The position numbers are program-made. A DNA stretch of 64,000 nucleotides from Candidatus Eiseniibacteriota bacterium. GTDB lineage: Bacteria > Eisenbacteria > RBG-16-71-46 > CAIMUX01 > VGJL01. Location: the NCBI GenBank assembly GCA_041946735.1, contig JBHGAY010000028.1, positions 1 through 64,000 of the forward strand, in the 5' to 3' direction. Of the stretch, positions 23,136 to 47,100 are shown one piece after another (the first letter of the stretch is position 1; the number at the start of each line of letters is the position of its first letter).

Positions 23136-26100
23136 CCCCTGCACGTCCACCGTGATCTTGCGGGAGAGGTCTCCGCGAGCGACCGCCGTCGTCACCTCGG
23201 CGATCCCGCGCACCTGCGCGGTCAGATTGTTCGCCATCGAGTTGACGTTGTCGGTCAGGTCCTTCCAAGTGCCGGCCACGCCCGGAACCACCGCCTGGCC
23301 GCCGAGCTTTCCCTCGCTGCCGACCTCCCGCGCGACGCGGCTGACCTCCGAAGCGAAGGAGTTCAGCTGATCGACCATCGTGTTGATCGTGTCCTTGAGC
23401 TGGAGGATTTCCCCCTTCACGTCGACGACGATCTTGCGCGAGAGGTCCCCCCGCGCCACGGCCGTGGTCACCTCGGCGATTCCACGAACCTGCGCGGTCA
23501 GGTTGTTCGCCATCGAGTTGACATTGTCGGTCAGATCCTTCCACGTCCCGGCGACACCCGGCACGGCCGCCTGGCCACCGAGCTTTCCCTCCGTTCCCAC
23601 CTCGCGCGCCACGCGCGTGACCTCGGCGGCGAAGGAGTTGAGCTGGTCGACCATCGTATTGATCGTGTCTTTCAGCTCGAGGATTTCCCCCTGGACCTCG
23701 ACGGTGATCTTCCTAGAGAGATCTCCGCGCGCGACCGCGGTGGTGACGCCGGCGATATTGCGCACCTGGGCCGTCAAGTTCGAGGCCATCGCGTTGACCG
23801 AGTCGGTGAGGTCCTTCCAGGTTCCGGCGACGCCGGGAACGACGGCCTGGCCACCGAGCTTTCCTTCCGTGCCGACCTCGCGCGCCACGCGCGTCACCTC
23901 GGCGGCGAAGGACCGAAGCTGGTCGACCATCACGTTGATCGCTTCCTTGAGCTGGAGGATCTCGCCTCGCACATCAACGGTGATCTTCTTCGAGAGGTCG
24001 CCGTTGACGACCGCGATCGTGACCTCGGCGATGCTGCGGACCTGTGCGGTCAGGTTGTCCGCCATCGAGTTGACGCTCTCGGTCAGGTCCTTCCAAACCC
24101 CGCTGGCGCCCTTCACCTGGGCCTGGCCGCCGAGCTTCCCCTCGGTTCCGACCTCGCGCGCCACGCGCGTCACCTCGGAGGTGAAGACCGAGAGCTGGTC
24201 GATCATCCGGTTGACGAGCTTCGCGGAGCGGAGGAACTCCCCTTCGAGCGGCCGTCCGTCGACTTCGAGCGCCATCGATTGCCCGAGGTCCCCCTTCGCA
24301 ACAGCCCCGATCGTGCGCGTCACCTCGGTCGTCGGCCAGACGAGGTCGTCGATGAGCTGGTTGAGCGAGGCGAGCTCGTCGGCCCATCCTCCGGTCAACC
24401 CGGGGACCGAGAGGCGGGCACGAAGCCGCCCCTCACGCCCGACGGTCGTCGTGATCCGCGCCATCTCGCGCCCGCGCCGCTCGCTCATCGCGAGGATGTC
24501 GTTCATCGCGTCGGCGATCTTCCCGTGCACGCCGGCCCAGTTCGACGGCAGACGGACGCTGAAGTCTCCCTGCCGGAGCGCCAGCACAGCTTCGAGAAGC
24601 TGCGTCGCCTGGATATCGTCAACGACCGCAAGGTTCGAGTACGCCTCGGCCGGATGAGGGGAATCGGTTTCGGAGACGCTGGTCGTGGTTGTGGGCGAGA
24701 GAGAGACTGTGGGTTCCGGGTCGTTCGGCGGGGTGCGCGGTTCCATCGACGATTCACACTCCTGAAGAATCACCGCGGCAGTCGCTGGTTTGGCAGTCCA
24801 TCGAATACGGTTGAAGATCGCAGGGGAGGGACAGGTTCGTCAACAAGATGGATTAAAAGAGCAGCCAAGCGAAAAAATGATCATGTACTACTCTTCATGG
24901 CTTACGCGTTTTGTTCTATCGCTGCTGTGTTTTGGCGATGTGCCTGGGTGACACGCAGCCTGTCACCGATCTCGCGTCCGGCCAGGTTTCCGGGAGGCAC
25001 AGGTCGGTCACCCTCGGCCGACGTTCGAGACGATCGACTTCGCGTGCCGACCATTGTTCGGGCGCTCCGGTGATCGGCCTCGCTCTGACCCTGGCCCTCC
25101 ATTTCGCCGCTGGCGCTCTGCGAAAGCGCGACCCGACGCTCTTCCGCGCACCTTCAGGCGATCCCCGAAACCCAGGGACGGAGATAGATCGTTGCGTGCC
25201 CGGAGCCGTCGCGCGACAGAGTCCTCGTGAAGAGCGAATGCATGCGAAGGTGGCCGGCTGTCGAGGAGGCGTCCGCAGACTGCCAGTCGGGGAGCAACCG
25301 GCCGAGAACCGCACGGTAGGAGTCGACGCACCAGCCCTGCCCCTCGATCCAGCTCGCCACCCGCCGGCTGGTCTCCTGGGGGGTCAGCATCGGAACGGGG
25401 AACCCCGCCGCGACGGTGAGAGCGATCGCCCCCCCGCTCGAGGGATCGATGGCGAAAGCGATGCCGGAGCGGCTCCTCGATGCGAGCGACTCCCTCAGGA
25501 TCCCCGGGATCTCCGGGACGAGGAGACCGGGATCGGCTGGCAGTCCGAGCGAGGAGAGGAGGTCGGCGACGAGCACGCGCCGCCATCCGGGCAGCTGATA
25601 ATAGATCTTGCAGGCGAGCCGGCCGCCCGGCGCCAAGCCGAAGCCGACCTCGTGCGGGTAGCCGTCTGCACGCTCCAACTGGTCGAGCGCGTCTCGGACT
25701 TCCTTCGCGAGGGGCAGGCACGCCGCAGAGAGCGCCTTCTCCAGCCGCGGGCGTCCGCCGCCCCCTAGCTCCACATCCAGCAGATTCAAATAGACCTTCA
25801 GCGTCACCAGAGCGGGAAGCGCCTCGCCGCCCGATCCAACGGCGTCTGCCACCGCGTCGACGCCCCCCCAGATCCGGAACCGGGCCCCGGCGGGAACACG
25901 AGCGGCCGGGTCGAGGAGGACGCGCGCAGCGGCGGTCACTCGTCCGAGGGCATCGCCGCAGCCGAGGCGCGCCGCCTGGACGGCCAGCGTCGCTAGCCCG
26001 GAACGGGCGCGCTCGTCGCTGGAGCGCAGCGGGTCGCCGATCTCCACCGCGTAGCGCAGGGCGCGGCGGACCTGCGGAGCGGCGTCGATGGAGAACTCGA

Positions 26101-44100: not shown

Positions 44101-47100
44101 TTGACGTTCCCCTTGAGGATCTCGAGCTTGATCAAGCCCTGCGACTCCATCGTCTCGGAGATGGAGGTGCGGTGCGCCACCTCGTGGCTCTCCTCGTTCC
44201 CCCAGGTGTCGTCGGAGGTGACCTTCTCCTTCGCGTACCCCATCACCGCGTTCTTCACTTCCTGGGAGTCGACGTGGCCGAGGATCGTGATCGCCGGAAG
44301 CCGCACGGGGAAGGTGAGCGAGTACTGGACCGCGCCGACGCTTCCGCCACCCTTCAGCGCCTCGCGGAAGAGGGTCGCGCCGTCGGCCGGCAGCTCGGCC
44401 GCGATCGAGGCGGTGTTGTCGGCGAAGAGCGAAGGCTTGCCGAGCGTCACCTCTTTGACGAACCGCTGGTCCTTGAAGGTCAGCAGGCTGACCGTTCCGT
44501 CGGTGAAGTCGACCGTCGCGAGCTTCACCTGCTTCGGCACCGCCTCCGTCGGATTCTCGGCTCGGTAGCGGGATTGCAGAGCCGACCGGACCTGCTCCAC
44601 GAGCTTCGGATCCTCCTTCAGCGCGGTCGTGAAAGTCAGGTAGCCGCCGCCCTTCTCTCCGGACGCTCCCGGGCGATCGACCGGGAACTGGTAGTAGAGG
44701 AAGGTGAACTGCGCCTTGCCCGACTCGTCGGTCGCGATTCGTGGCTGCCGCGGCAGGTAGTAGAACGAGGTCGGATCCTCGTCGTCGCGGAAGACCGTCA
44801 GGCCCTGGATCGTGTCGTAGACGGGAATGCTGATCATGTGGACCTCCAAGGACGGGGAGCTTCGGCGAGAGGGCGCAGACCGGCGAGCGCCGGCGGCCGT
44901 GACATCGAGGGGTGCGGTGGCTGCTTCGCCATGTTCGTTTCTCCGGAATCCATTCGGAGAGCTGAATGCGGGAAGCCAATCGACGACGCCCTTAGGGGGG
45001 TCCGTCCGATCGCCCTTCGCTTCCCTGCGTGAGGACGATGGATGCGGCCGCCGCGGACGCGAAACGGTGCGCCGAAAGCTGCTCCGATTTCGCGCGAACG
45101 AAGCTGCGCCGGACGGAGGAGTATCGCATCCGGATTGTCTCTGTCTATTAATGAATCATTTCGCATGACGATTCTTGAGTAGGACAACCGCCATACAAAC
45201 GACTGCACGTACCCGTAAATGTTCGGAAGCGCGACCAGGGGAGGCGGCGCGCTGCCGCGGTCGGGACCGAAGCTCAACCGCCGCCGGACGCCTCCGCTGC
45301 CGCTCGTGGAGCGATCGGCACGGCCGGCTCGAACGCGAGCCTTCCGGATCGGAGCAGCCGCCGCGTGCGCTTCTCCGCGAGCACCGCTCCCGCGACCCGG
45401 ACCCGCATCGCCAGCCGGCATCCGGCGATCGCCGCCTCGCGGATCGCCCCGCCGCGGATCCACAGATCGACCCCGTCGAACCGCAGAAGGACGGTCACCG
45501 CGCAGGGGAGGGTATGGACGACGTCGCCGTCGACGAGCAGCTCGATCCGCGGCTTCCAGGACGAGCGCACCGTGTGGGTTCCGAGCGAGACACGAACCGT
45601 GCGGTCCGGCGGATATCTCTTCGGGTCGGTATAGGGAAGCAGAGCCTCGTACTCGCCCCACGCGCTCTTGAGAATCTCCGGCAGCGGGACGTCAAGCAGT
45701 TCGAGCAACGCTTCGGCAACGCGCGCTGCGGCGGTCGGAAGGAACCGTCCGGCCAGCGGGGCCGGCAAGATCCCGCCGAGGACTCCGGGGAGCCGCGTTT
45801 CGAACGCCTCGGCATCGGACGCGATCTGCTTCAGCGCCACGTCCTTCAAGGAGGTCGCCGCCTCATCGCTGGCGGGTGCGCTCATGTCGGTCCCCCCATC
45901 GGCTCGAGCGATTCGTGAATCTCCTGTGGCGGCGTGCGCTCCGTGCCGCTCACCTCGTCGCGCCTAGAGCCCCCGGCGATCCGGACGGCAATCTCCAGCA
46001 CGACGCCGATCGGGCTTTCGACCCCACCGAGGATCGCGACCGGCGGAGCCCCTGGGCGCGGGCGTGCCTCGATCGCCGGACTGGGAGGCGGGCGACGATC
46101 GCGATGCGACGCGCGACGGCCACGTCCGAGCCGCGTTGCGACAGCGATCCCGACAAGCGACACCGCGCCAACGAGGAGCAGGCCGACGGCGGTTCTCGCC
46201 CAGACGGGCGGCGCGACGACGATGGCGACGGCCGTGCCCGGATCGACCAGGGTCCCGGCGACCGGATCCTGACCGAGCACCCCGCGCTGCAACGAGAAGA
46301 ACGAGCCGGCCGGGCCGATCCGGACGGCGCCGAGGACGAGCCCGACCCTATCGAGCCGGCGAACCGCTTCCGCCCGATCGAGAGCGAGTAGCGCCGGCAC
46401 GGGCACGCGAACCGTCACCGGCTCCCGCCTCTCGTTGTTCCGCTCGTTCGATTCCCGGATGCGCTTCTGCGGATCGATCACCGCATCGAGGCGATGCATG
46501 CCTGGCGGAGGAGACGGGTCGAATGGCACGCGGATCCAGAGAGCGCCGCCCGCCCCGATCGCGGGCACCGCAGTCGTCGCCCGTCGACCGTCGAGGTCGG
46601 CGAGCAGGCGAGACTCGGGCGCATTCCCCTTCCCCTCGTTCTGGACGAGGACCTCGATCGACTGGCCGCCGGCCGCCGGGCCGGCGCTCACGCGGGCGCC
46701 GCCGATCGCCAGGTCCGGGAGGGGCCGAGGCGGCGCGTACTCGAACTCGAGATCGTCGAGCGCGAACGCGCTCAGGAGCGCCGGCGCATCGTTGCCGCCA
46801 CGCAGGCGAACCTCGACTTCACGGATGACCGCTTCCGGCGTGCGGACGGCGAGCTCGATCCCAATGGGGATCGGGACCGGCGACGGCAGGAAGCGTTGGA
46901 GATCCCGGGCGACCGGCGAGCCCGCCGAGTCCGAGGCGACCATCAGGATCGTGACGGGCCGCGCGAGCGGCGAATCGTAGCCGGCGCGCACGCGGAGGCT
47001 CCGGACCGGGCGATCGAAGGAGATCTGGAACGGGGTATCGCAGAACTCCATCGCGAAGCAGTGAACGATCGCGTTCGGCTCGGATCGCACGAAGTGAGGC

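What a model noticed while it worked through the whole genome (the two positions that open the first line are those of the whole stretch)
25154..44837. Nine-gene cassette of six paralogous novel 750-830 aa proteins plus a PLD enzyme, scattered by horizontal transfer acros [...]
A co-directional block g02031-g02022 encodes six diverged paralogues (g02031, 30, 29, 28, 25 and the short g02026) that share an N-terminal 'FRDDxxxxxFYYLP' domain of no known fold followed by 4-5 beta-sandwich domains, a PLD-family enzyme (g02027) and two more large proteins (g02024, g02022). I read it as a self-contained, horizontally mobile conflict (anti-phage or anti-plasmid) system, or another accessory machine, whose effector is the PLD nuclease/phospholipase. 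If true it is an undescribed multi-protein system with no annotated component.
Evidence so far: Paralogy 22-31% identity; no Pfam family at E<=0.1 except PLDc_2 on g02027 and a sub-threshold squalene-cyclase-like hit on g02022. g02031 has only 92 homologues (E<=1e-10) in 5.8 billion proteins, all unnamed. In 185,579 species genomes only 20 loci (Chloroflexota, Deinococcus, Cyanobacteria, Actinomycetota, Armatimonadota, Limnochordia, Acidobacteriota, a deltaproteobacterium) at 48-78% identity; same order 31-30-29-28 in 17 of the 20 loci and on through the PLD gene in 11, the others being cut by contig or flank ends; g02024 and g02022 homologues follow directly in 5 of 5 genomes checked. AlphaFold: pLDDT 79, C-terminal Ig-like array; N-terminal 335 aa (pLDDT 74) best PDB Z 7.1 over 95 re [...]
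(Added by a program. Inside this text positions count along the whole contig: contig position 1 is position 1 of the stretch shown here. "Call 12" and the like, gene names such as g00115 and contig names such as C1 are that model's own, and its searches are not shown. The text may have been shortened before it was handed on; [...] marks where a part breaks off. The agent that wrote the report below was given it as the finding of a first reader that could run no searches.)

Follow-up and report, generated by a model that had tools for sequence, protein, structure and literature searches.

The report
Novel paralogue operon with lipid enzymes
A 20-kb operon that has moved between bacterial phyla encodes large look-alike proteins of no known family, a phospholipase D and an enzyme that probably attaches ring-shaped terpene lipids to tryptophan, so it looks like an undescribed machine that acts on membranes.

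Summary
Window 25154-44837 (minus strand) is one tight operon of ten genes. Six are paralogues (g31, g30, g29, g28, g25 and the short g26) that share an N-terminal domain with no Pfam or PDB relative. The others are a PLD enzyme, g24, a SnoaL gene and g22.

Three corrections apply.
1. g22 is not a vague squalene-cyclase hit. It fuses an MstE-like single-domain class II terpene cyclase to a DMATS/ABBA-fold aromatic prenyltransferase. This is the domain pair of NctPC, which geranylgeranylates and cyclises a peptide tryptophan.
2. The PLD resembles phospholipid-hydrolysing, eukaryote-like PLDs, and both HKD motifs are intact.
3. The N-domain superfamily is large (832 clusters at 50% identity) and modular. 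The core 31-30-29-28 also occurs alone or with a caspase. Distant relatives carry Sec signal peptides.

The paralogues, the PLD and g24 here have at most one cysteine; g22 has 8.

Best reading (confidence 0.3): the paralogues co-assemble into a membrane-attacking, toxin-like complex. A cluster protein receives a cyclised terpenoid anchor from g22, and the PLD is the effector. Rival readings are abortive-infection defence, an envelope structure, and a natural-product cluster. No function was tested.

The parts
42585..44837 (-). g31, first core paralogue (750 aa): N-domain, then at least three tandem ~100-aa repeat domains
   Evidence: ORF. Paralogy. 87 homologues, all unnamed. C-terminal repeats 430-545, 545-645 and 645-750 are related by hhalign at probability 69-97%. 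One Cys.
40122..42551 (-). g30, core paralogue (809 aa) with a long Gly-rich insertion in the variable loop of the N-domain
   Evidence: It follows g31 in 12 of 12 metagenome loci that reach it.
37667..40084 (-). g29, core paralogue (805 aa from the conserved MLTLEPP start)
   Evidence: blastp against g28 gives E 3e-39. It follows g30 in 7 of 7 loci.
35119..37623 (-). g28, core paralogue (834 aa). The N-domain (residues 1-300) was modelled.
   Evidence: AF2 model: pLDDT 83.9, pTM 0.71. It shows a beta-sandwich core, a helical subdomain and a disordered loop at 109-136. No PDB fold match (Foldseek E > 0.04; best VIA Z 5.6). phmmer finds 832 representative clusters.
33400..35106 (-). g27, PLD-superfamily enzyme (568 aa) with two HKD-type motifs and a Gly-rich tail
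   Evidence: PLDc_2 E 2e-11 and PLDc E 1e-4. H156, K158, D176 and H399, K401, D406, N416 are invariant in 6 sequences. The only PDB relatives are phospholipases D (7v53, PLD1, PLD alpha, PLD2). No Cys.
32666..33385 (-). g26, short paralogue (239 aa) that consists of the N-domain only and lies directly after the PLD
   Evidence: blastp against g25 E 1e-15 and against g31 E 6e-14. The order PLD-g26-g25 is kept in L040 and L041.
30311..32578 (-). g25, g31-like paralogue (755 aa) belonging to the accessory module
   Evidence: blastp against g31 E 1e-40. Synteny in L040 and L041.
28062..30290 (-). g24, 742-aa protein of its own family with a central disordered linker; possibly a very diverged seventh paralogue
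   Evidence: 16 homologues at 42-60% identity, all unnamed. No Pfam or PDB match. hhalign against the g31 and g28 families is only weak (E 0.015 and 0.035, probability 1-3%). It lies on the same contigs as g22 homologues (contig lengths).
27415..27912 (-). g23, SnoaL/NTF2-like protein (165 aa); an insertion between g24 and g22 that the closest orthologous cluster lacks
   Evidence: SnoaL E 4e-19. In L040, g24 ends at 17097 and g22 begins at 17142, with no SnoaL hit.
26435..27343 (-). g22 N-terminal half: single-domain (beta-only) class II terpene cyclase, MstE-like, with the acid motif D-C-D-S-T-A
   Evidence: phmmer against PDB: 8pak E 5e-11, MstE 6sbg E 1e-7, 8paj E 2e-7. SQHop_cyclase_C and TIGR01787 hits. 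D-x-D-S is at least 90% conserved in 13 sequences. The DxD motif of MstE is described in PMC12414744 (passages).
25154..26233 (-). g22 C-terminal half: aromatic (indole-type) prenyltransferase with the ABBA/PT-barrel fold
   Evidence: AF2 model: pLDDT 82.1, pTM 0.86, with ten strands in five alpha-beta-beta-alpha units. Foldseek against PDB: MpnD 4yla E 2e-13, TM 0.69; then PriB, IptA, CymD and DMATS1; 132 chains at E <= 1e-3. K-x-Y and R motifs on the strands are conserved.
44838..45273 (-). Upstream non-coding region with an AT-rich stretch, one sigma-70-like site (45147-45120) and a GGAGG before the g31 ATG
   Evidence: Sequence read directly. The one promoter-like site is no more than shuffles give (1 found, 1.0 expected). 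No Rfam family.

Best explanation
The operon builds a multi-subunit, membrane-directed, toxin-like protein machine.

Proposed steps, all inferred:
1. The large soluble paralogues, which lack signal peptides and nearly lack cysteine, co-assemble through their shared N-terminal beta-sandwich/helical domain. The core is g31, g30, g29 and g28. In this variant g25 and the N-domain-only g26 are added.
2. g22 works in the cytoplasm. Its prenyltransferase domain puts an isoprenyl chain on a tryptophan, and its MstE-like cyclase domain folds that chain into rings. The substrate is proposed to be one of the co-encoded proteins, not a small peptide. g24, its constant neighbour, is the first candidate. 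The product would be a sterol-like membrane anchor.
3. The PLD, with both catalytic HKD motifs intact, hydrolyses or transfers phospholipid head groups in the membrane that the complex binds.
4. The complex most likely acts outside the producer's cytoplasm, on another cell's membrane, after release by an unknown route.

Shown: the gene set, the paralogy, the folds and motifs of g22 and the PLD, the modular synteny, horizontal transfer, and cysteine depletion. Not shown: assembly, lipidation of a protein, export and target.
For: Operon. Gaps are 12-149 nt, and no terminator-like site lies on the operon's strand between 26500 and 46000.

Shared N-domain. It occurs in six proteins here, in 4-6 tandem genes in 18 other genomes of the phylum, and in 832 representative clusters. 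That pattern fits subunits of one assembly.

g22. It combines an MstE-like cyclase with an ABBA prenyltransferase. This is the domain pair of NctPC, reported to geranylgeranylate a tryptophan and then cyclise the chain (review PMC13290415, section 2.3).

No peptide substrate gene. The operon has no room for a precursor gene, and no Trp-bearing small ORF lies in the 380 nt after g22.

Co-occurrence. The g22 family is present in the 3 genomes that hold the PLD-type cluster (G000, G206, G207). It is absent from the 2 that hold the other variant (G017, 99% complete, and G711).

PLD. Only phospholipase-type PDB relatives appear, and the HKD residues are invariant. Relatives of this PLD elsewhere lie in Herpetosiphonaceae, Myxococcota/Polyangiaceae, Actinomadura and Legionella.

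Extracytoplasmic signature.
- 7 of 7 large non-g22 proteins have at most 1 Cys, against 93 of 834 crude ORFs of at least 500 aa in this genome.
- 81 of 87 g31 orthologues have at most 1 Cys, while the g22 family has a median of 8.
- Distant homologues in two families of the same phylum begin with what look, by eye, like Sec signal peptides.
- One homologue ends in a peptidoglycan-binding domain.
Against: - No cluster protein has a signal peptide or a transmembrane segment (maximum 19-residue hydropathy 1.57).
- No secretion, holin or lysis gene and no recognisable immunity gene lies in the cluster.
- The N-domain has no structural similarity to any known pore-former beyond generic beta-sandwich matches (anthrax PA pore Z 4.9, iota Ib Z 4.7, among many Fn3/MG-like hits at Z 4-5.6).
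- The best structural relatives of the g22 prenyltransferase act on free tryptophan or small indoles, so a small-molecule product is equally possible. The SnoaL insertion next to g22 fits that reading.
- NctPC's sequence could not be compared, and the primary paper was not readable.
- The core occurs without the PLD and g22 (L081, G017, G711), so lipid chemistry is not essential to the core's function.
- Low cysteine also occurs in some cytoplasmic proteins: a GroEL-like ORF is on the same list.
Confidence: 0.3

Rival explanations
1. Abortive-infection or anti-phage (anti-plasmid) defence system. The cytoplasmic paralogue complex senses infection, then unleashes the PLD (or, in other variants, a caspase) on the cell's own membrane or proteins.
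For: Very patchy, cross-phylum distribution: only the centre genome (1 of 401) matched in the sample around the Chloroflexia MAG and 1 of 401 in the sample around Actinomadura, yet the Chloroflexia copy is 72-80% identical. The enzyme slot is swappable: PLD here, Peptidase_C14 in G017. Both are effector types common in defence systems (established knowledge). No signal peptides. Weak DrmC-like PLD similarity. XRE-IrrE and AAA_14/DUF4143 genes flank some metagenome loci.
Against: No PADLOC system match: the DrmC hits are E 3e-4 to 3e-3, and the NCBIfam DrmC score is 20 bits against a cut-off of 133. There is no NTPase, nuclease or other known sensor module. The flanks in the window and in G206 hold no integrase or transposase family (Pfam; for the window; no cross-hits). 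There is no relative in viral contigs. Conserved cysteine depletion and Sec-dependent relatives point outside the cytoplasm. A tryptophan prenyltransferase-cyclase has no precedent in defence systems known to me (recalled).
Confidence: 0.2
2. Structural or adhesive envelope apparatus. The paralogues form a surface layer, sheath or fibre, and the PLD and g22 serve to anchor it in lipid or to remodel the membrane beneath it.
For: Sec-dependent tandem arrays lie next to ~1200-aa CARDB proteins in families f17 and f18. A CARDB/PASTA protein is encoded just upstream here. One homologue carries a PG_binding_1 fusion. Cysteine depletion is typical of surface proteins. There is a weak Foldseek row for the Deinococcus HPI S-layer protein (E 0.18).
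Against: The members of this subfamily lack signal peptides, and their conserved Met-1 begins the first strand of the fold. The distribution is far too sparse and transfer-prone for a core envelope structure. The caspase variant fits poorly. No sortase, secretion or glycosylation genes are linked.
Confidence: 0.2
3. Partly a natural-product cluster. g22 (with SnoaL g23 here) makes a free cyclised prenyl-indole or meroterpenoid. The large proteins bind, carry or resist it, or are functionally unrelated neighbours.
For: The closest structural relatives of the g22 prenyltransferase use free Trp or small indoles. MstE acts on a small molecule (PMC12414744). The SnoaL/NTF2-like insertion sits directly upstream of g22. 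No precursor peptide gene was found.
Against: g22 travels with g24, the PLD, g26 and g25 as one module in three phyla, with no isoprenyl-diphosphate synthase, transporter or further tailoring gene. SnoaL is missing from the closest orthologous cluster. Translationally coupled spacing ties g22 to the protein genes.
Confidence: 0.1

Closest known systems
NctPC (and ChrPC), bifunctional prenyltransferase-cyclase RiPP maturases (Hubrich et al., Chem 2024). I saw this work only through review PMC13290415 (passages) and a reference listing.
   Same: [quoted passage not shown] The review describes NctPC in the same terms and says it geranylgeranylates a tryptophan and then cyclises the chain.
   Different: No small precursor peptide gene lies beside g22. 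g22 sits in an operon of 740-830-aa proteins with a PLD. No sequence comparison with NctPC was possible. Substrate and donor are unknown. In g22 the cyclase is N-terminal and the transferase C-terminal; the order in NctPC is not known to me.
MstE, merosterolic acid synthase (PDB 6SBB-6SBG), and the 361-365-aa cyclases 8PAK and 8PAJ
   Same: The N-terminal half of g22 aligns over about 240 residues (E 5e-11 to 2e-7). It keeps a D-x-D acid motif (DCDSTA) like MstE's DxD (PMC12414744).
   Different: g22 is fused to a prenyltransferase. Identity is low. MstE cyclises a free meroterpenoid.
DMATS-type bacterial indole prenyltransferases (MpnD, PriB, IptA, CymD, DMATS1)
   Same: Same PT-barrel fold: Foldseek E 2e-13 to 1e-11, TM 0.63-0.70 over about 370 columns.
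   Different: Only 15-19% identity. No Pfam or NCBIfam hit to Trp_DMAT or related families. The domain is fused to a cyclase.
Eukaryote-like phospholipases D (PDB 7v53 'Phospholipase D', human PLD1/PLD2, plant PLD alpha)
   Same: Two HKD-type motifs. The N-terminal GWW...D motif region and the second HKD align. PLDc_2 scores above its Pfam cut-off.
   Different: E-values are only 1e-3 to 0.5. The protein is 568 aa, with no PX, PH or C2 domains. The first motif lacks the Asp at the canonical spacing. Its partners are unknown.
Operon-encoded multi-paralogue pore-forming toxins without signal peptides (tripartite ClyA-like toxins), and protease-activated, lipidated bacterial gasdermins. Analogies recalled from memory, not tested.
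   Same: Several paralogous soluble subunits are encoded side by side. Signal-peptide-free members exist. There is a link to lipid modification and, in the G017 variant, to a caspase-like protease.
   Different: No fold or sequence similarity was found. No ClyA-like or gasdermin chain appeared among the listed VIA/Foldseek rows. Pore formation is pure conjecture.

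Membership tests
PLD superfamily (HKD enzymes) | Pfam PLDc/PLDc_2 match above the curated cut-off | tested here: met
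   PLDc_2 scores 44.2 bits (cut-off 27) and PLDc 22.6 bits (cut-off 21.9).
PLD superfamily (HKD enzymes) | Two H-x-K-x4-D-x6-G-(G/S)-x-N motifs | tested here: met
   The second motif, HPKSTIVDDQWALIGSAN, is complete. The first has H156-x-K158 with G174 and D176 further on, so it is non-canonical. All of these residues are invariant in 6 sequences.
PLD superfamily (HKD enzymes) | Phospholipid (rather than nucleic-acid) substrate | not testable with these tools
   This rests only on likeness to phospholipases D in the PDB. No nuclease-type PLD was listed.
NctPC-like prenyltransferase-cyclase (PC) maturases | ABBA/PT-barrel prenyltransferase domain | tested here: met
   AF2 pTM 0.86. Foldseek MpnD E 2e-13, with 132 chains at E <= 1e-3.
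NctPC-like prenyltransferase-cyclase (PC) maturases | MstE-like single-domain class II cyclase with an acid D-x-D motif, fused in the same chain | tested here: met
   8pak E 5e-11 and MstE E 1e-7. The DCDSTA motif is present, and D-x-D-S is at least 90% conserved in the family.
NctPC-like prenyltransferase-cyclase (PC) maturases | Adjacent ribosomal precursor peptide with the acceptor tryptophan | tested here: not met
   Operon gaps are 12-149 nt. No Trp-containing ORF of at least 20 aa lies in the 380 nt downstream. The region upstream of g31 was read but not scanned for small ORFs.
NctPC-like prenyltransferase-cyclase (PC) maturases | Sequence relatedness to NctPC, and geranylgeranylation plus cyclisation of Trp | not testable with these tools
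   The NctPC sequence and the primary paper were not available. Activity needs an assay.
Known anti-phage defence systems (PADLOC-DB 2.0) | Match of the component proteins to a system's models | tested here: not met
   0 of 8 non-PLD proteins match. The PLD gives only DrmC E 3.5e-4 and 3e-3, and NCBIfam DrmC at 20.4 bits against a cut-off of 133.
Beta-barrel pore-forming toxins of the anthrax PA / iota Ib type | Fold similarity of the N-domain to the pore-forming domain | tested here: inconclusive
   Z 4.9 (111 residues, rmsd 4.9) and Z 4.7 (107 residues), within a crowd of generic Fn3/MG-like matches at Z 4-5.6. The variable loop 109-136 is not amphipathic by eye.
N-domain paralogue family (this operon): is g24 a member? 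| Profile-profile similarity of g24 to the paralogues | tested here: inconclusive
   hhalign A6 against A5: probability 0.6%. Against A7: E 0.015, probability 3% (g24 116-194 against g31 94-175). Against A3: E 0.035, probability 1.5% (C-terminal domains).

The most novel reading that the evidence does not exclude
g22 lipidates a full-size, folded protein of its own operon (g24 or a paralogue) on tryptophan with a cyclised, sterol-like C20 isoprenoid. This anchors a hetero-oligomeric paralogue complex and its phospholipase D to membranes. It would be a bacterial counterpart of cholesterol or GPI anchoring, and the first protein-level, rather than peptide-level, substrate for a prenyltransferase-cyclase. 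It would also define a new superfamily of modular membrane-attack machines whose enzyme slot can hold a PLD or a caspase.
Probability: 0.15. Interest if true: 0.9.

Novelty: categorically new. Interest (0 to 1): 0.72.

Why it matters
The paralogue family is a large superfamily of about 800-residue proteins with no Pfam family, no solved relative and no name: 832 clusters at 50% identity. It always occurs in tandem sets and moves between phyla. Tying it to two lipid-active enzymes gives the first experimental handle on it. One is a tryptophan prenyltransferase-cyclase of a type first described in 2024 for peptides only. If that enzyme modifies a protein, this would be a new kind of bacterial protein lipidation. 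If the complex attacks membranes, it would be a new class of toxin or defence machine. Either way, the variants (core alone, core with PLD module, core with caspase, Sec-dependent arrays) offer a natural dissection series.

Tried and rejected
- Profile search of the N-domain family against PDB sequences: best E 0.41, nothing.
- Foldseek of the N-domain model against the PDB: no match at E <= 1e-3. The exhaustive VIA search gave only generic beta-sandwich rows, best Z 5.6.
- BFVD: one uncharacterised Medusavirus protein, E 3.9e-5 with TM only 0.33, which is uninformative.
- PHROGs, PADLOC and NCBIfam on the paralogues, and PHROGs on two G017 proteins: nothing.
- Pfam on 31 distant homologues: one PG_binding_1 only.
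- g24: no PDB, Pfam or profile relative. The Atlas model is poor (pLDDT 0.53).
- The PLD-anchored genome scan found the paralogues beside only 2 of 25 PLD loci, so the PLD subfamily also lives alone.
- g31 as a single query found nothing in viral contigs or metagenome contigs. An alignment query then gave 15 metagenome loci.
- Search for a small Trp peptide gene after g22: none.
- Rfam: no family in the window.
- Sequencing runs: DNA holders in soil, industrial-waste and landfill metagenomes; no RNA holder is listed.
Subunit contact is therefore untested.
- Literature. Searches for 'NctPC/ChrPC', 'steromaze', 'polycyclic isoprenoid moieties' and a PLD/tandem-paralogue/Ig-like/Chloroflexi combination found no paper on this operon or its paralogue family. 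The primary NctPC paper is not held.
- Ideas considered and dropped. An alpha-2-macroglobulin/TEP-like system, with the g22 toroid as a thioester domain: the toroid is a cyclase with an acid motif, and the MG-like matches are generic. A gasdermin-like fold: not seen among the listed matches.

Full report
**1. What is there**

Window 25154-44837 holds ten co-directional minus-strand genes. They are g31 (750 aa), g30 (809), g29 (805), g28 (834), g27 (568), g26 (239), g25 (755), g24 (742), g23 (165) and g22 (729).
- Gaps between genes are 12-149 nt, and g30 and g29 overlap by 39 nt.
- No terminator-like site lies on the minus strand between 26500 and 46000. Two lie inside g22 at 26472-26492, and such sites are no more frequent here than in shuffled sequence.
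- About 430 nt of non-coding DNA with an AT-rich stretch precedes g31.

I read this as one operon. GC content is like that of the flanks.

**2. Paralogy is real**

All 15 pairs among g31, g30, g29, g28, g25 and g26 give blastp E <= 0.003, with 20-34% identity. The best pairs are g25-g31 (1e-40) and g28-g29 (3e-39). None of the six hits g27, g24 or g22.

g26 is the N-domain alone.

The C-terminal part of g31 holds at least three tandem ~100-residue repeat domains, related by hhalign at probability 69-97%.

**3. The paralogue family has no known relative, but it is not small**

- Pfam, PADLOC, NCBIfam and PHROGs give nothing for the paralogues.
- The word-indexed search with g31 returns 87 proteins, all 'hypothetical'. 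Their sources are named Deinococcus, Caldilineales, Cyanobacteria, Bryobacterales, Cellulomonas, Kribbellaceae and Thiocapsa.
- An exhaustive HMMER search with g28 finds 832 representative clusters at E <= 1e-3, 445 at E <= 1e-10 and 121 at E <= 1e-30. Most share only residues 1-290, and lengths run from 650 to 1165 aa.
- Of 31 such distant members, 29 have no Pfam domain and one ends in PG_binding_1.
- The ESM Atlas lists unnamed clusters of 57-122 members in Actinomycetota and Pseudomonadota.

**4. Fold of the N-domain**

I modelled g28 residues 1-300 with a 119-sequence alignment. The model scored pLDDT 83.9 and pTM 0.71. It shows a beta-sandwich core, a helical subdomain at 204-275 and a disordered variable loop at 109-136.
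- The profile finds nothing among PDB sequences.
- Foldseek finds nothing at E <= 1e-3.
- The exhaustive VIA search gives only generic sandwiches: TMEM106B luminal domain Z 5.6, TEP1r MG domain Z 5.3, and anthrax PA and iota Ib pores Z 4.9 and 4.7.

I treat the fold as unassigned.

**5. g22 is the informative gene**

The N-terminal half matches single-domain class II terpene cyclases: 8pak at E 5e-11, MstE at 1e-7 and 8paj at 2e-7. It keeps the acid motif DCDSTA, and D-x-D-S is at least 90% conserved in 13 family members. MstE itself uses DxD rather than DxDD (PMC12414744, passages).

The C-terminal 359 residues fold into five alpha-beta-beta-alpha units (pLDDT 82, pTM 0.86). They match DMATS-type indole prenyltransferases: MpnD at E 2e-13 and TM 0.69, then PriB, IptA, CymD and DMATS1, with 132 chains at E <= 1e-3.

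A 2026 review describes NctPC in the same terms. [quoted passage not shown] The primary paper is Hubrich et al., Chem 2024. I saw it only as a reference, because it is not held.

Earlier notes of this scan describe related fusions beside tiny Trp peptides and kinases in other genomes. Here I found no such peptide gene. The operon has no room for one, and the 380 nt between g22 and the next gene hold no Trp-containing ORF.

**6. The PLD**

- PLDc_2 scores E 2e-11, above its cut-off.
- Both HKD-type motifs are invariant across six relatives.
- The only PDB sequence relatives are phospholipases D: 7v53, PLD1, PLD alpha and PLD2.
- The DrmC-like scores lie far below their cut-offs.

I therefore read it as a phospholipid-directed enzyme, not a nuclease. 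This is an inference.

**7. g24**

g24 is a conserved family of its own: 16 homologues at 42-60% identity. It has no Pfam, PDB or profile relative.

By eye, its C-terminus and a segment at 116-194 resemble the paralogues. hhalign support is negligible, at probability 1-3% (none).

**8. Comparative genomics**

The window's genome has only this one cluster.

*The closest copy.* It lies in a Chloroflexia MAG (L040/G206).
- g31 is 77% identical, g28 74-80%, the PLD 72% and g22 45%.
- The order is identical and SnoaL is absent.
- Several genes there are broken into pieces; I cannot tell assembly error from decay.
- Its flanks are unrelated to the window's.

*Other loci with the PLD module.* An alphaproteobacterial MAG keeps PLD-g26-g25.

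*Metagenome loci.* Across 15 loci, the order 31-30-29-28 holds wherever the contigs reach: 12 of 12, 7 of 7 and 4 of 4. Beyond g28, the PLD follows in L071 but nothing of the module follows in L081.

*Rarity.*
- Only the centre genome itself (1 of 401) matched in the sample of G206's phylum.
- 1 of 401 genomes matched in the sample of the phylum of an Actinomadura genome.
- 19 of 206 genomes in the window's own phylum have an N-domain match.

*Variants.*
- G017, in the window's own family, has a different variant. Two unknown proteins (688 and 621 aa) are followed by g31-, g30- and g29-like genes, a Peptidase_C14 caspase and a 1019-aa paralogue. It has no PLD, g24 or g22.
- G711 has a similar variant.
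- In families f17 and f18, arrays of 4-6 shorter N-domain proteins begin with what look, by eye, like Sec signal peptides. They sit beside ~1200-aa CARDB proteins.
- The g22 family is present in 3 of 3 genomes with the PLD-type cluster and in 0 of 2 with the other variant.

*No mobile-element signs.* There is no relative in viral contigs. No integrase, transposase or phage family turned up among the window ORFs I scanned.

**9. Physical properties**

No cluster protein has a transmembrane segment; the maximum 19-residue hydropathy is 1.57. None has a signal peptide by eye. The conserved Met-1 starts the first strand of the fold.

The seven large proteins other than g22 have 0-1 cysteine each. 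Only 93 of 834 crude ORFs of at least 500 aa in this genome are so poor in cysteine (median 0.75% Cys), and many of those carry export signals.

The depletion is conserved: 81 of 87 g31 orthologues have at most 1 Cys. The g22 family has a median of 8, and the g24 family a median of 2.5.

This pattern is typical of proteins that work outside the cytoplasm. That is established knowledge and suggestive only.

**10. Reading**

The data show a modular family. A core of four paralogues can take on different enzyme modules.

Here the module is lipid-directed. It holds a phospholipase-type PLD and a tryptophan prenyltransferase-cyclase, and it brings two extra N-domain proteins that could dock it to the core.

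My best explanation (confidence 0.3) is a co-assembling, membrane-attacking, toxin-like machine. One of its components receives a cyclised terpenoid anchor from g22, and the PLD is its effector.

The rivals are:
- an abortive-infection defence system (0.2);
- an envelope or adhesive structure (0.2);
- a natural-product reading of g22 and g23 (0.1).

The remaining probability is for something not yet imagined. Assembly, lipidation of a protein, export and target are all inferred. The complex prediction that would have tested subunit contact could not be run because the queue stayed full.

**11. Novelty**

No searched paper or library describes the paralogue family or this operon. The PLD and the PC-type enzyme are members of known kinds. 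The system as a whole fits no known kind.

Noticed in passing
window 17859-24773 (-), and 14160-17949 (-): A 2304-aa hybrid histidine kinase has an array of 13-14 HAMP domains, a GAF domain, HisKA/HATPase and three receiver domains. It lies directly downstream of the operon and is followed by two to three more hybrid kinase or receiver genes. It is not conserved beside the Chloroflexia copy of the operon.
   Followed up: partly
L031:8893-18480 and L032:1-5323 (genome G017, same family as the window): A variant cluster: two unknown proteins (688 and 621 aa), three N-domain paralogues, a 292-aa Peptidase_C14 caspase and a 1019-aa paralogue. It has no PLD, g24 or g22. The 688-aa protein has a 1371-aa homologue beside the array in an actinomycete genome (L086) and a sub-threshold LmeA-like lipid-binding hit.
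   Followed up: partly
L033-L039 (genomes of families f17 and f18 of the window's phylum): Tandem arrays of 4-6 shorter (~600-750 aa) N-domain proteins that begin with what look, by eye, like Sec signal peptides. They lie next to ~1200-aa CARDB-domain proteins and other unknown exported proteins.
   Followed up: partly
L074:3743-5519, L076:666-3331, L081:4002-8029: In three related metagenome loci, the operon's divergent neighbours are a Peptidase_M64 gene and one or two pairs of a hemopexin-repeat protein without a signal peptide (~393 aa) and a ~115-aa unknown protein. AAA_14/DUF4143 and XRE-IrrE genes also lie there.
   Followed up: no
L078:4-834 (-): A partial gene with an SpvB domain (E 3e-72, Tc-toxin-like) lies directly upstream of g31 in one of the 15 metagenome loci.
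   Followed up: no
L040 (G206:C30:65804-84564): In the closest orthologous cluster, g29, g28, g26, g24 and g22 each align in two or three frame-shifted pieces, and g22 has an in-frame TAG. I cannot tell long-read assembly error from gene decay.
   Followed up: no
model of g28 residues 1-300 against BFVD: The only viral structural match is an uncharacterised 417-aa protein of Medusavirus stheno (Foldseek E 3.9e-5, 285 columns, TM 0.33).
   Followed up: no
window 45274-45885 (-) and 45882-48227 (-): A 203-aa ORF with no family overlaps the stop of an upstream ORF that has a probable signal peptide or membrane anchor, CARDB and PASTA domains and a C-terminal hydrophobic segment. The two look co-transcribed and separate from the operon.
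   Followed up: partly
window 56071-57348 (-): Two adjacent ORFs (243 and 163 aa) match the N- and C-terminal parts of the cobalamin-independent methionine synthase catalytic domain (Meth_synt_2). This is a split or frame-shifted gene.
   Followed up: no
L042-L045 and L055, L058: The closest stand-alone relatives of the operon's PLD (35-42% identity) lie in three Actinomadura genomes and, as a tandem pair, in a Herpetosiphonaceae MAG. More distant ones lie in Myxococcota/Polyangiaceae and two Legionella species. None has N-domain genes nearby.
   Followed up: partly
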